In this document: positions 6,985-11,200 of the stretch, piece by piece
Layout: each line of letters starts with the position of its first letter
How positions within the stretch are numbered: the stretch's first letter is position 1
Assembly: GCA_977017645.1 (NCBI GenBank)
Contig: OZ360222.1
Span: forward strand, 230,330,001-230,394,000
Origin: Torpedo marmorata
Lineage: Eukaryota
DNA: 64,000 nt
Direction: 5' to 3'
Notes under the pieces: generated by a model
The model's database searches: none
The model's input: the letters and a program-made list of their open reading frames with translations, nothing else
Told to the model about the DNA's origin: nothing
Translations under genes and position numbers: made by a program

Positions 6985-8400
6985 TGGAAAAGTCATCCCT
7001 TCGAGATGAAATGCATAGTCAATATTACTAAAGAAGTCAAAGTGAAAATTGCAGACAGCGCGACTACATTTTTCCAGACCTCTTTGCACGTAGGAGAATG
7101 ACAGGATTGTAAATGCTACATTGTTGTTTAAGAATGAAGACCAGGATAAAACCTGGCAGCTCCAGGCCAGTCAGCATATCAACAGTGGTGGGAAACGTTC
7201 AATATGTAATCCAGGATAAATTAAATTGGTATTTGGAAAAGTATGTCTTAATTTATATAAAACTGCAGATTTTGTTTAAAAGCAAATTGCATTTGATAAA
7301 TTTGATAAAGCCCTTTGAGGTAAAGGAAAGAGGCAATGAAGACAGTGGCTGATGCATAAATGGACAATCCAAAGGTGTTAGATTTATTTGTTAATAAAGT
7401 AGAAGTACAGTATGTGGAGTTGCAGAGGCAGTGTCTGTGGTATGAATGGGCTTAGGGACAAAAACCAGAACTGTGTTTGCAGTTGAGAGACCTACATACT
7501 GATGTTGCCAGTATTTAGATTGGAGCCATTGCTCAATTTGCTATTACTTAATGACTTGGACATTAATTGCATAGTATACAGACATAATTTTAACATTTGT
7601 TGATGAAACAAAATGTAGATCTAGAGTAGTCAATGAGAAGTATGAATCCAAAGATGTAGACAAAGCAACTACCAACACTGAAAAGTGAAAATGGTTTCAT
7701 TCTGATGGTAAATGAAGCAAGGCAAATAAAAACCATATAGTTCAAAGTTCAGATTTATTGTCAGAGTACATACATGACAGTATTAAAGAAGTAGAAGACA
7801 AAACTGCTCAAGGCTTCAGGACGCAGCCTCCTCGGGATGCATGTGTGAATCTTTGAAGGTGGTATGGCAAGTTGAGAAGGCTGCTTGAAAAGGATTTGAC
7901 TTCCTTGAGTATACTTGGACATCTGGAGTTCAAAAGCAAGGAACTTATAGTGAGCTTTGTGCTATTAAAAAAGAACCCCTAGCTGTAGTTTTGTATCCAA
8001 TTTCAGGCATTGCATTTTTGGAAGGATGTGTAGGTGTCAGATTTAAAAGAATCCTCTCAGAGATGAAATCTTCATTTTAGTGGTGAGACTAAAGATATTG
8101 GAATGGTTCTCCTTAAGCCAAATAAGGTTAGCACATGATTTGATGAGATGTATAAAATCATAATTGCATAAATAAGGAGATAATGTTGAAAGTGACAAAG
8201 AATTGCCAAAAGAACCAAAGTGAAATGAAAAAAAGAAAATATACCATAAGTGACTATAATCTAGAATGGATTCCACAGTGCAGTGAAAGAAAGATTTTAA
8301 AAAAGAATTAAATAAATACTTGGAATGGAAATATTTAAGGACCAAAGGAAAGAACAGTGTGATTTCAGTCACTACAAGCTAGTCATTTTAACCTCAATGG
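6985..8400 (+). mobile_element. Highly decayed CR1 LINE remnants; the last piece is split by the LTR element and continues at 11201
   Basis: Degenerate RPVSISTVVG (7160-7190), FVDETK (7597-7612); 8373-8400 joined to 11201 reads YKLVILTSMVGMLLKTLIQDRI (CR1 YRPVSLTSVVGKLLE.II). Confidence 0.7.
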
Positions 8401-8547
8401 TGTCGTGTATTTTCCCTTTGAAAATAACCTCACTCGAGAGAAGCTGTAAGCATCTTTATTCGTGCCAAGATGGCACCAAACTGAACCTCCCCATACAATG
8501 TAACTCCGTGTATATGACGTCACGCGCACTTGCGCGTTCCCATAACA
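8401..8547 (-). repeat. 3' LTR (147 bp, TGTTAT...ACGACA)
   Basis: Immediately follows PPT GAGGGGGAAGAG; contains TGACGTCA (8515-8522), GGTGCCATCTTGG and AATAAA; about 95% identical to 10994-11135. Confidence 0.88.
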
Positions 8548-8559
8548 CTCTTCCCCCTC
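8548..8559 (-). other. Polypurine tract
   Basis: Minus strand GAGGGGGAAGAG directly before the TGT of the 3' LTR. Confidence 0.85.
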
Positions 8560-9344
8560 AAAAAAAAATGTTTTGTGCTTACTGGTAAATAGGTATAAAG
8601 TTAAATTTAACTATGTTAACACTACAGAGAATTTAAGCACAACTTCCACTAATCATGTTAACTATAGATCCCGCGCTACCTAACTTAAAATGTATTAACT
8701 GGAAACATACAAAGTCTTTAAGTCACCGCCCATAATCTTTGCGATGTACTGAATAAAGTATTTAAGTCACTGCACATTGTCTTTTAAATGTACTGGAGGG
8801 TGTCTTTCTCTCTTGGATCTTCTCGGGGATGAAGAACACTGAACCAGAGTACGACTTTCCAACTTTTTTGGAGGTTTGTTGAGGAGGTTTAATTTCCAAA
8901 GAATCATCCTCTTCACCTCGATCCTCTATCGATCCTTCTCGTCTGTTTGGTAAATTGTGAATGGTTATCTCCATCTTGTGTTCTTGAAGCTCTCCTTCCT
9001 CCAGTGAGTCTCGCTTAGATTCCCTGTCATCCAAGTTTTTCAAACGTTTCCCATCAACCTTTTTCTCCTGTTCTCGCCGTTTCTGCCTTTCCCGTTCTCT
9101 ATGTGCCTTATCTTGTTCCTCTCATTGCCGTTTCCTTCGCTCATGTTCCCTCTCTTTTTCCTTATCTTTATCCTTCCCTCTCGTGTTTTCCCATTTCTTT
9201 GCTCATTTCCTTGAAGATTTTTAAGTTCATCTCATCTGCCTTAAGTGCCCTGAAGACTTTAAATTCTTTGAGTTTCTTCGTAACAGTCTTCGTTTCCCAT
9301 GATTCATTTCTGAAGACTTCAGCTGAACGGCTTCGATGCCTTCG

Positions 9345-10301
9345 TTTTTCATCAGAAATCTTCAACCAGTCCCACAGGTTAATTAAAAAACACAAAATGC
9401 TGGAGAAACTCAGCAGGTCAAACAGTGTATTAAAGGGCTCAAGCCCGAAACGTCAGTTATGTATTTCTACCTTTGCTACATAAAAGACACTGTTTGACCT
9501 GCTGAGTTTCTCCAGCATTTTGTGTTTTTTACTTCAACCACGGTGTCTACAGATTTTCGTGTTTTACCACAGGTTAACTATTTGACTTCTCAGCTCTGAG
9601 CACTTTGCTTCATTCTGAGCCCTCTTCAACTCCAGCTGTTGAAGTAATGTTTTCAGGCCTATAATATTCTCATTGGACAGACAGAATGCATCCTCATCCT
9701 CACACACAATATCTCTCTCAAAGCTAGTGTCAGGCAGTAGATCAAGTTCATCCATGCACAAAATGATTTTTTTCTTCGTTTCTACAAACTCAGCCCTTCT
9801 GCGTTCCTTTTCTTCATTAAGTGAAGCAATGTGCTGACGAAATGCATCCAGCTGTTCAACACTGGGGACAGCATCCTAATCAATTGTTGTACACAATATA
9901 TCACAAAACTCTTCATCTTCCTCCTTAAGGCACTTTAATTTTGTCATCCTCTCTTTCTTCTCCTTCAAAAGAACCTCCAAACGTGTCCGCAAATCTTTTT
10001 CGATCTGCAGCATTGTGTAATCTTCTTCTGGCAGACATGCATCCAAACCGAGTTCCTGACACACTGCATGGAGCTCTTTCTGGCACACAGCAATGCTCTT
10101 TTTCAGCCGCTGCCATAAATTTTCTTCCTCTGCAATCATCATATCCAAAAGGCCCTTAATATGCCTTTTAACAACTTCTGTTCTTTGCAGTCTTTGATCT
10201 TCTGGAATTCCAATCTCTTCCCAGATATTTCGAAGATGGGAAAGTGCTGCATTGAGACAGGTGACTGACTCGCTGGTGAGTGCATCGCTTTTCTGCACCA
10301 T
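9345..10301 (-). pseudogene. PRC1: Intronless PRC1 (protein regulator of cytokinesis 1) retrocopy, about codons 1-255, one in-frame stop (9876-9878) and a Penelope-derived insertion
   Basis: MVQKSDALTSESVTCLNAALSHLRNIWEEIGIPEDQRLQRTEVVKRHIKGLLDMMIAEEE...KDLRT...*DAVPSVEQLDAFRQH...LCMDELDLLPDTSFERDIVCEDEDAFCLSNENI...RSQIVNLW|DWLKISDEKR matches the recalled vertebrate PRC1 N-terminus; no introns. Confidence 0.93.
9383..9566. mobile_element. Short Penelope-derived insertion with 44-bp inverted arms, inside the PRC1 copy
   Basis: 11-bp TSD CCACAGGTTAA (9372-9382, 9567-9577); inverted arms 9385-9428 and 9487-9530; hammerhead remnant gggctcaagcccgaaacgtc shared with 50560-50582. Confidence 0.82.
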
Positions 10302-10329
10302 CCTCCGGGCTGGCTGCGTTTGGCTTCGG

Positions 10330-10712
10330 CTGTCTGGCCCTGGGTGTCTGGCGGCTGGCTCCGTCTGTCCGGCCTCCATCTGGGCGTCTGGCCCCCGGCT
10401 GTTCAGACCCTCGCTGGGCGTCCTGCCCCGGCTGTCCCAGCGGTCCCTGTCCCGGCCCCTCTATGGGTGTCCTGTCCCCGGCTATTCGGCCCCTCTCTTG
10501 GCGTCTGGCCGCCGTTTGTTCGGCCCCTCGCTGGGCGTCCTGCCCCAGCGGTTCCGGCTGCTCGGCCCCTCTGTGGGCATCCTGTCCCCGGCTGTTCGGC
10601 CTCTCTCTTGGCATCTGGCCCCTGGCTGTCCCGGCCCTGGCTGTTCGGCCCCTCTCTTGGCGTCTGGCCCCTGGCTCTCCCGGCTGCCTGGCCCCTCTGA
10701 GGGCGTCCTGCT
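10330..10712. repeat. GC-rich imperfect tandem repeats inside the LTR element, upstream of PRC1
   Basis: Recurring ggctgttcggcccctc(tcttggcgtctggcc / gctgggcgtcctgcccc); followed by a (CT)-rich tract at 10713-10800. Confidence 0.85.
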
Positions 10713-10977
10713 CCCTTTCTCTCTCATTTTCTCCCTTTCTCTCTCCCTTTCTCTTTTTCTCTCTCTCACTTTCTCTTTTTCTCTTTTCTTACTTTTTTGT
10801 CGTCTTCCTCTCTAGTTTCTACCTTTTTTCCTGCTGCCGAGCATGTGCTTTCGTCTCGCTGCAGCTCGACGTCGTTCCTGTCGTCGTTCTTTTTTCAACA
10901 AATTTTCACCTCCGATATCCTTTTTACCCAAAATCCTGTAGATCCCATCGTCCGGAGTGTGGAATTATTATTTTTTT

Positions 10978-10990
10978 ATCCTCGTCGCCA
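10978..10990 (-). other. Primer-binding site complementary to the tRNA-Ser(GCU) 3' end
   Basis: Minus strand TGGCGACGAGGAT, 3 nt after the CA end of the 5' LTR; plus strand ATCCTCGTCGCCA equals the recalled 3' end of vertebrate tRNA-Ser(GCT) plus CCA. Confidence 0.82.
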
Positions 10991-10993
10991 CTT

Positions 10994-11195
10994 TGTCATG
11001 TATTTTCCCTTTGAAATAACCTCACTCGAGAGAAGCTGTAAGCATCTTTATTCATGCCAAGATGGCGCCAAACTGAACCTCCCCATACAATGTAACTCCG
11101 TGTATATGACATCAGGCGCACATGCGCGTTCCCATGAATAAAGATGCTTACAGCTTCTCTCAAGTGAGGTTATTTCAAAGGGAAAATACATGACA
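10994..11195 (-). repeat. 5' LTR (10994-11135) with an appended inverted 62-bp copy of its U5 end (11134-11195)
   Basis: 10994-11055 and 11134-11195 are reverse complements with 1 mismatch; junction at palindromic CATG. Confidence 0.88.
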
Positions 11196-11200
11196 AATGG

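What the first reader, a model, noticed from the sequence alone, without database searches (positions are those of the whole stretch)
8401..11195. Non-autonomous Gypsy-type LTR element that has captured a spliced PRC1 mRNA
Seen: all cis signals of an integrated LTR retroelement are present (AATGG TSD, TG..CA ends, 147-bp LTRs, PBS, PPT), and removing the element restores the interrupted CR1 reading YKLVILTSMVGMLLKTLIQDRI. Where gag-pol should be, there is an intronless 5' PRC1 coding region between a GC-rich repeat region and a charged region that ends in an integrase-tail-like motif. Established: template switching onto co-packaged cellular RNA produces LTR-flanked retrocopies, as in retroviral oncogene capture. 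Inference: this is a host-gene-transducing non-autonomous element. If it is a multi-copy family, it is a mobile carrier of a cytokinesis gene fragment, which I do not know to be described.
Basis: partly seen in the sequence, partly recalled or inferred. Interest (0 to 1): 0.92.

Follow-up and report, generated by a model that had tools for sequence, protein, structure and literature searches.

The report
Gene-collecting retrotransposon with circular-RNA fossil
This is one decayed copy of a family of jumping elements in a shark- or ray-type genome that lost their own genes and instead picked up pieces of host cell-division RNAs one after another, including what looks like one lap of a circular RNA.

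Summary
The element is real and belongs to a family. It is a non-autonomous Gypsy LTR element. PRC1 exons 1-6 are present without five introns. At least 81 loci on 29 contigs are of this type; 17 of 29 two-LTR copies have their own perfect 5-bp TSD.

Two other loci keep the exact exon 6-to-exon 2 back-splice junction. One lacks PRC1 and starts where the family's CDK11 piece ends, which closes one lap of a 648-nt circle.

A derived form adds TPX2, CENP-E and POLR3F pieces; its junction patterns match 245 and 143 places. All 11 propagated host-host junctions are in frame, against about half expected. All 42 sampled copies with the PRC1 start are broken.

LTR-mediated retrocopies and circRNA pseudogenes are known. 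I did not find the one-lap anatomy, five-gene serial capture or in-frame bias in print. Verdict: new variant of a known kind.

The parts
8396..8400 (.). left 5-bp target-site duplication AATGG
8401..8547 (-). 3' LTR, 147 bp, TG...CA, with AATAAA; 140/147 and 142/147 identical to LTRs of gag-pol relatives L061 and L063
8548..8873 (-). Gypsy 3' internal remnant: last codons of integrase, 3' UTR, polypurine tract (8559-8548)
   Evidence: about 88% to L061/L063 over 8401-8873; PPT
8863..9084 (-). CDK11 piece B: 3' part of exon 2, exon 3, first 56 nt of exon 4 (spliced)
9070..9350 (-). CDK11 piece A: last 32 nt of exon 4, exon 5 (alternative), exon 6 to nt 123. It lies upstream of piece B although it is downstream in the gene. 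The A/B joint is a microhomology deletion over the back-splice junction.
9343..10301 (-). PRC1b coding sequence, codons 1 to about 257 (exons 1-6, five introns lost, ends inside exon 6), joined in frame to CDK11
9372..9579 (.). later insertion of a 195-bp inverted-repeat (MITE-like) element with a 14-bp duplication; seen at this position only in this copy
10302..10710 (-). PRC1 5' UTR with its GC-rich tandem repeat expanded
   Evidence: matches parent exon 1 region L090:594-776
10711..10783 (-). GA-rich low-complexity tract, shared with PRC1-less CENP-E-bearing elements; origin not found
10784..10993 (-). Gypsy leader with primer-binding site (10990-10978); ends before the gag start
   Evidence: 87-93% to relatives over 10781-11135
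10994..11135 (-). 5' LTR lacking its first 4 nt; 136/142 identical to the 3' LTR
11133..11195 (+). inverted duplicate of the last 63 nt of the 5' LTR, forming the element's outer end; specific to this copy
11196..11200 (.). right 5-bp target-site duplication AATGG

Best explanation
The locus is a decayed copy of a non-autonomous Gypsy family built by repeated template switching of a helper's reverse transcriptase onto host RNAs packed in the same particle.

Step 1 (inferred from shown junctions): RT left the Gypsy RNA at an A-rich microhomology in the integrase tail and entered a CDK11 circular RNA (exons 2-6, 648 nt) in exon 4. It crossed the back-splice junction and came back to its entry point, where RNase H had already removed the template, so it jumped back to Gypsy RNA. 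The result is one lap.

Step 2 (junction shown, order inferred): PRC1 mRNA with its 5' UTR and start codon replaced what was left of gag-pol and 35 nt of the lap.

Step 3 (shown): a microhomology deletion removed the back-splice junction in the line that amplified. Copies spread with new TSDs. Recombination and further captures gave a five-gene form with TPX2, CENP-E and POLR3F.

Step 4 (pattern shown, cause inferred): lines that spread kept one reading frame from the PRC1 start, most simply because an RNA translated nearly to its 3' end escapes nonsense-mediated decay. After insertion, copies decay neutrally. Capture probably took place in oocytes or early embryos, where these RNAs are abundant (inference).
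For: Family: 81 loci on 29 contigs. Junction patterns match 39 and 54 places with reversed controls at 0. 17 of 29 two-LTR copies have perfect, all-different TSDs and 6 more have one mismatch.

Helper: L061 and L063 share the LTR and PBS and show PR-RT-RH-IN order.

RNA origin: five PRC1 introns and four CDK11 introns are lost; one CENP-E intron is lost. Microhomologies lie at the PRC1/CDK11, exon 6/exon 2 and CDK11/Gypsy joints.

Circle: L147 and L148 join the last base of exon 6 to the first base of exon 2. Both are used splice sites in linear contigs of run X11 (RNA is a guess). L148 has no PRC1 and starts at exon 4 nt 54, while the family's piece ends at exon 4 nt 56. Exons 2-6 occur once in the 140 kb fetched around the parent gene.

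Frame: 61/62, 40/41, 22/22 and 4/4 copies are in frame at four recurrent joints. Seven more joints lie in one frame in L192 and L193. Chance from microhomology phase is 0.46-0.52 per joint for matches of 5-8 nt, so about 2e-4 to 8e-4 for 11. Only 25 of 136 private small indels are multiples of 3.
Against: The circRNA itself was not observed: no contig bridging the back-splice junction appears among the rows shown (most rows were not shown). L148 is cut off in exon 2, so its 3' joint is unseen, and it shares no derived base with the family that proves one capture event. The tree is star-like and does not resolve L147 as basal. Inverted repeats in the flanking introns are not special to this exon block. 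Seven small frameshifting indels occur in 3-6 copies each, and 10 of 13 single-copy large rearrangements are also in frame, so a mechanical phase bias may explain part of the pattern. Stops are not significantly rarer among shared substitutions (3/117 vs 41/684, p=0.19). The phase baseline came from PRC1 and CDK11 only.
Confidence: 0.78

Rival explanations
1. Same family and mechanism, but the CDK11 template was a linear RNA with repeated exons (trans-splicing, exon repetition or a lost tandem duplication). The same A-run served as both entry and exit point.
For: An exact exon 6-exon 2 joint also arises this way; PMC4897178 itself warns of other routes to non-colinear joints. Both breakpoints sit on one A-rich run that could be a hotspot.
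Against: No second copy of the exons in 140 kb. A genome-wide exon 2 search found the 5' part of exon 2 only in the parent and two element loci among 40 scored of 69 candidates. No sequence from exon 1 or exon 7 onward was seen next to the CDK11 piece in the elements mapped.
Confidence: 0.12
2. The chimeric protein is useful to the element. PRC1's N-terminal dimerisation and rod part, later with TPX2 and CENP-E pieces, would tie the element's particle or RNA to the oocyte spindle or protect it, and that is why the frame was kept and the five-gene form out-multiplied the two-gene form.
For: 11 of 11 propagated joints in frame. Three of five cargo genes are spindle proteins. Shared substitutions are more often synonymous than private ones (39/117 vs 149/684, p=0.009). 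The five-gene form has about three times as many matches.
Against: The synonymous excess is small and may reflect recurrent transitions. PRC1 codons were repeatedly deleted or replaced. The captured part stops well before the microtubule-binding region (recalled from PRC1 structure). All 42 sampled copies with the PRC1 start stop early. Abundance in oocytes explains the cargo without function.
Confidence: 0.2
3. No selection on frame at all. In-frame joints are a by-product of codon-phased microhomology among A/G-rich coiled-coil coding sequences.
For: The baseline is already about 0.5, not 0.33. 10 of 13 single-copy large rearrangements are in frame too.
Against: 11 of 11 at 0.46-0.52 has probability below 1e-3. 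The single-copy events may belong to small lines sampled once.
Confidence: 0.3
4. A LINE-made processed pseudogene of PRC1 landed in an existing LTR element, or the locus is a one-off or an assembly artefact.
For: LINE-type and MITE-type insertions are common inside copies.
Against: No polyA tail or inner TSD; PRC1 is 3'-truncated inside exon 6 and replaces gag-pol. Dozens of copies share the joints. Contigs bridging the CDK11/Gypsy joint occur in 3 of 4 runs laid.
Confidence: 0.02

Closest known systems
LTR-mediated retrocopies in metazoans (Tan et al. 2016, PMC5131818; section 5 and passages read)
   Same: Internal ORFs replaced by partial mRNA, microsimilarity at switch points, multi-gene chimeras, further rounds as non-autonomous elements, often in frame with the parent.
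   Different: In the passages read, two Drosophila retrocopies have more than one site and the four-gene mouse 'Super' retrocopy is a single locus. Here there are tens to hundreds of dispersed copies, serial captures along an amplifying line, and a circularly permuted cargo. The stem 'circ' does not occur in that paper's main text.
circRNA-derived pseudogenes, e.g. mouse circRFWD2 (Dong et al. 2016, PMC4897178; part 1 of 2 of the text read)
   Same: [quoted passage not shown]
   Different: That paper leaves the mechanism 'mysterious'. Here full LTR-PBS-PPT-TSD anatomy, helper relatives, both switch points and a one-lap length are seen, and the circle piece is fused to further captured mRNAs.
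Maize Bs1 (passages in PMC13317346 and PMC5131818)
   Same: LTR element carrying pieces of three host genes that form a hybrid ORF.
   Different: Plant. One of its three pieces is out of frame. No circRNA cargo in the passages read. Here five genes in a vertebrate, with all propagated host-host joints in frame.
Oncogene capture by acutely transforming retroviruses (recalled)
   Same: Template switching onto co-packaged host RNA; helper-dependent spread.
   Different: No env was seen in the two helper relatives examined; germline copies; no sign of a living product.

Membership tests
Ty3/Gypsy LTR retrotransposon (non-autonomous member) | TG...CA LTRs, PBS, PPT, 5-bp TSD | tested here: met
   the window's 5' LTR is altered by an inverted duplicate
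Ty3/Gypsy LTR retrotransposon (non-autonomous member) | Helper with PR-RT-RNaseH-IN order sharing the LTR and PBS | tested here: met
   L061 and L063; both are broken copies
Ty3/Gypsy LTR retrotransposon (non-autonomous member) | Mobilisation in trans by that helper | not testable with these tools
   inferred from distinct TSDs and absence of gag-pol
LTR-mediated retrocopy (Tan 2016) | Host insert is spliced and replaces internal ORFs | tested here: met
LTR-mediated retrocopy (Tan 2016) | Microsimilarity at switch points; no polyA tail or inner TSD | tested here: met
   three 3' joints read; the joint between the GA tract and the PRC1 5' UTR was not resolved
LTR-mediated retrocopy (Tan 2016) | Co-transcription from the LTR | tested here: inconclusive
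   run X11 is only guessed to be RNA
circRNA-derived pseudogene (Dong 2016) | Exact non-colinear back-splice junction | tested here: met
   met in L147 and L148; deleted in the window copy and in the other copies that cover the joint
circRNA-derived pseudogene (Dong 2016) | Parent circRNA detected in RNA | tested here: inconclusive
   no bridging contig among rows shown; contigs only
LINE-mediated processed pseudogene | PolyA tail, own TSD, intact 3' end | tested here: not met
DIRS/Ngaro-type element (considered for the inverted end) | Inverted or split terminal repeats as a family trait, tyrosine recombinase, no 5-bp TSD | tested here: not met
   inverted end in 0 of 29 other copies; 5-bp TSDs; rve integrase in relatives

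The most novel reading that the evidence does not exclude
A vertebrate retrotransposon line that lost gag-pol, captured a stop-free CDK11 circular RNA, and then built and kept, by serial in-frame exon shuffling, a chimeric protein of spindle-gene parts (PRC1, TPX2, CENP-E) that helped it transmit through the oocyte.
Probability: 0.2. Interest if true: 0.93.

Novelty: new variant of a known kind. Interest (0 to 1): 0.8.

Why it matters
It offers a base-level model for how circular RNAs get retrotransposed, which PMC4897178 left open: Gypsy RT template switching limited to one lap. That rule can be tested on the mouse circRFWD2 copies. It shows that a non-autonomous LTR element can act as a long-lived exon-shuffling platform in a vertebrate germline, with intermediates still in the genome. 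The cargo is a fossil sample of RNAs that were near retrotransposon particles, enriched for spindle genes. Practically, hundreds of PRC1, TPX2, CDK11, CENP-E and POLR3F fragments at about 94-98% identity (measured for PRC1 and CDK11) will confound gene annotation and read mapping in these fishes.

Tried and rejected
Run X11 (RNA guessed) shows a short-form joint and the PRC1/TPX2 loose end, but DNA cannot be excluded. One search returned nothing and was not used.

The CENP-E piece was not identified by word search, Pfam or the Atlas (generic coiled coils only); the profile search and name look-up identified it. The tree of 54 of 81 loci is star-like and dates a burst (median end branch 0.025) but orders nothing. 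Inverted repeats exist between the introns flanking the circle, but also between control intron pairs. L161's CDK11 piece has no difference from the parent; an independent recent capture was considered and left open, because the piece holds no diagnostic site and its LTRs differ at 10 of 147.

First-look candidate numbers (806, 454, 213) are not copy numbers. My PRC1 reference lacked 3 nt of exon 1; this has no frame effect and explains the '3-nt insertion'. One of 40 loci gave no alignment and was dropped. Parents of TPX2 and POLR3F were not located, so their intron loss is inferred from contiguous Pfam matches only.

Earlier findings: three look-ups returned nothing. Literature: searches listed nothing on this family or on circRNA capture by an amplified LTR family; one search listed circCDK11A in two reviews (listing only). 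Subscription journals and Repbase/Dfam were not searched. Supplements of PMC5131818 and PMC4897178 were not read and may hold junction details that bear on the novelty of the one-lap point.

Full report
What is there. The window lies at G000:C11:230,330,001-230,394,000 in a 6.2-Gb genome. Its PRC1 piece is 81-88% identical to shark and ray PRC1b. Only 8401-8873 and 10784-11135 align to gag-pol relatives. Those relatives (L061, L063) have PR-RT-RNaseH-IN order, the same LTR and PBS, and their own TSDs, which makes them Ty3/Gypsy. The PBS looks complementary to the 3' end of tRNA-Ser(GCT) (recalled, not tested).

Two oddities of this copy. A 195-bp inverted-repeat element splits PRC1. The outer end is an inverted duplicate of the 5' LTR's last 63 nt. 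It matches the adjacent LTR at 62/63 but the 3' LTR at 60/63 plus a gap, while the two LTRs differ at 6 of 142. It shares the 5' LTR's private changes, so I infer a template switch during DNA replication after insertion, primed by the LTR's TGT...ACA ends. None of 29 other two-LTR copies has it.

PRC1. The parent is at C76:34.64-34.67 Mb. Exons 1-6 are joined without five introns, at 93-98% identity, and end inside exon 6. The GC-rich repeat matches the parent's 5' UTR repeat, expanded. There is no polyA tail or inner TSD.

The charged region is CDK11. Its best homologs are ray CDK11B at 84-86%. The parent is at C60:1.28-1.36 Mb. In the element the order is exon 4 (3' end), 5, 6, then 2, 3, 4 (5' part). 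In most copies exon 6 joins exon 2 through a gapped 16-nt microhomology that removes both exon ends. Two loci, the only ones with the 5' part of exon 2 among 40 scored of 69 candidates besides the parent, keep the exact junction: last base of exon 6 to first base of exon 2. In run X11 (RNA is a guess) one linear contig leaves at that exon 6 base and another enters at that exon 2 base, so both are used splice sites. L147 carries PRC1. L148 does not: it is LTR, leader, gag start, a pol piece, then exon 4 from nt 54, exons 5 and 6, the junction and exon 2 to nt 63, where it is cut off. The family's CDK11 piece ends at exon 4 nt 56. Entry and exit therefore meet, covering one lap of a 648-nt circle; that length is a multiple of 3 and one frame has no stop over two laps. 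One lap is what an RT with RNase H should give on a circle (inference). Limits: L148's 3' joint is unseen, no derived base ties it to the same event, the tree does not order copies, and the circRNA was not seen in RNA.

Family size. Four searches give 81 distinct loci on 29 contigs, with overlap estimates of 58-100; a few of these lack PRC1. Of 81 loci examined, 29 have two near-complete LTRs: TSD mismatches are 0 in 17 (all different), 1 in 6, and 2-4 in 6; median LTR-LTR divergence is 5.4%. Copies with both long pieces differ from the parents by about 2-6%. The tree of 54 of 81 loci is star-like, an old burst. Contigs bridging the CDK11/Gypsy joint appear in runs X1, X4 and X5 (coded organisms A, B, C; three studies; one may be the source sample), and not among rows shown for X11.

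More cargo. L161 is a complete PRC1-less element (TSD CTTTC) with gag and pol remnants, the GA tract, a third host piece and CDK11 exons 3-4 with the same 3' joint. That piece maps exon by exon to C2:266.017 Mb; its three best relatives are named CENP-E or CENP-E-like. Following it revealed a derived form: PRC1, TPX2, PRC1, CDK11, CENP-E, CDK11, POLR3F, Gypsy 3' end (Pfam PF06886 and PF05158). One copy was read end to end, with TSD CATCC and LTRs 115/136 identical to the window's. The PRC1/TPX2 joint pattern matches 245 places and the POLR3F/Gypsy pattern 143, with controls at 0. Only 100 of each were listed, and some cluster on C1 and C25, probably segmental duplications. By structure these are a different set from the 81; I did not intersect them formally. 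I read five such copies (L192-L195, L200), one of them end to end.

Reading frame. At four recurrent joints of the two-gene form, 61/62, 40/41, 22/22 and 4/4 copies are in frame. In the five-gene form seven further host-host joints lie in one frame from the PRC1 start. Three of the stops in L192 are absent at the same places in L193 and L194, although L195 shares two of them. The in-frame share of 5-8-nt microhomologies among PRC1 and CDK11 sequences is 0.46-0.52, giving below 1e-3 for 11 of 11. Against this: 10 of 13 single-copy large rearrangements are also in frame; seven small frameshifts recur in 3-6 copies; stops are not significantly depleted among shared changes (p=0.19); the synonymous excess is modest (p=0.009) and may be mutational. 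All 42 copies with the PRC1 start stop within 399 codons, short of the roughly 460-490 expected. So the frame pattern is real, its cause is uncertain, and no sampled copy is an intact retrogene.

Order of events. CDK11 first is favoured at about 70%: PRC1-less elements carry the CDK11/Gypsy joint or the circle with gag-pol remnants (L148, L154, L161), and no PRC1 copy joined directly to the Gypsy 3' end was seen. Recombination could also produce those forms.

Why these genes. PRC1, TPX2 and CENP-E are spindle proteins (established). CENP-E mRNA is enriched on microtubules in Xenopus egg extract (PMC2373496, passages; PRC1 and TPX2 do not occur in its main text). Germline abundance is the simplest reason (inference).

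Against what is known. LTR-mediated retrocopies, multi-gene chimeras and further cycles are described in PMC5131818 (section 5 and passages). LTR-associated circRNA pseudogenes are described in PMC4897178 (part 1 of 2), which calls the mechanism mysterious. Bs1 carries three host genes (passages). My searches for this family or this combination found nothing (listings only; open-access library). It works like a Tan-type LTR retrocopy and passes that membership test except for transcription. The family passes the back-splice test through two loci, while the window copy has lost the junction. Verdict: new variant of a known kind; interest 0.8.

Noticed in passing
L092:9047-9182 (G000:C76:34,694,047-34,694,182) and L090:2498-2570: A second copy of PRC1 exon 2 lies about 35 kb upstream of exon 2 of the parent gene, and an inverted piece of exon 4 lies just upstream of exon 1.
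   Followed up: no
G000:C1:38.37-38.38 Mb (L082-L085): A second intron-containing PRC1 paralog at about 50% identity; not the donor.
   Followed up: no
L191 (G000:C53:29.44 Mb): An element of the same LTR lineage with a roughly 700-nt GA tract and CENP-E but no CDK11 or PRC1, so CENP-E may have been captured separately and brought in by recombination.
   Followed up: partly
G000:C1:344.41-344.59 Mb and C25:202.7-205.2 Mb: Clusters of five-gene-form junction matches about 30-200 kb apart, probably tandem or segmental duplications of a block containing the element.
   Followed up: no
L148 (G000:C76:18.986-18.988 Mb): The PRC1-less back-splice fragment is cut at both ends and flanked by a roughly 60-bp duplicated repeat sequence, suggesting capture at a DNA break.
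   Followed up: no
L107:374-499 (CDK11 exon 5): A 126-nt alternative exon present in a sawfish isoform and skipped in run X11 was included in the captured RNA.
   Followed up: partly
L186: A 63-nt piece spanning CDK11 exons 3-4 is repeated four times in tandem, in frame.
   Followed up: no
L007 (G000:C41:129.382 Mb): Two LTRs of this family lie tail to tail about 230 bp apart.
   Followed up: no
L190 (G000:C2:266.016-266.018 Mb): The CENP-E coiled coil is built from tandem exons of about 240-270 nt with a repeated unit.
   Followed up: no
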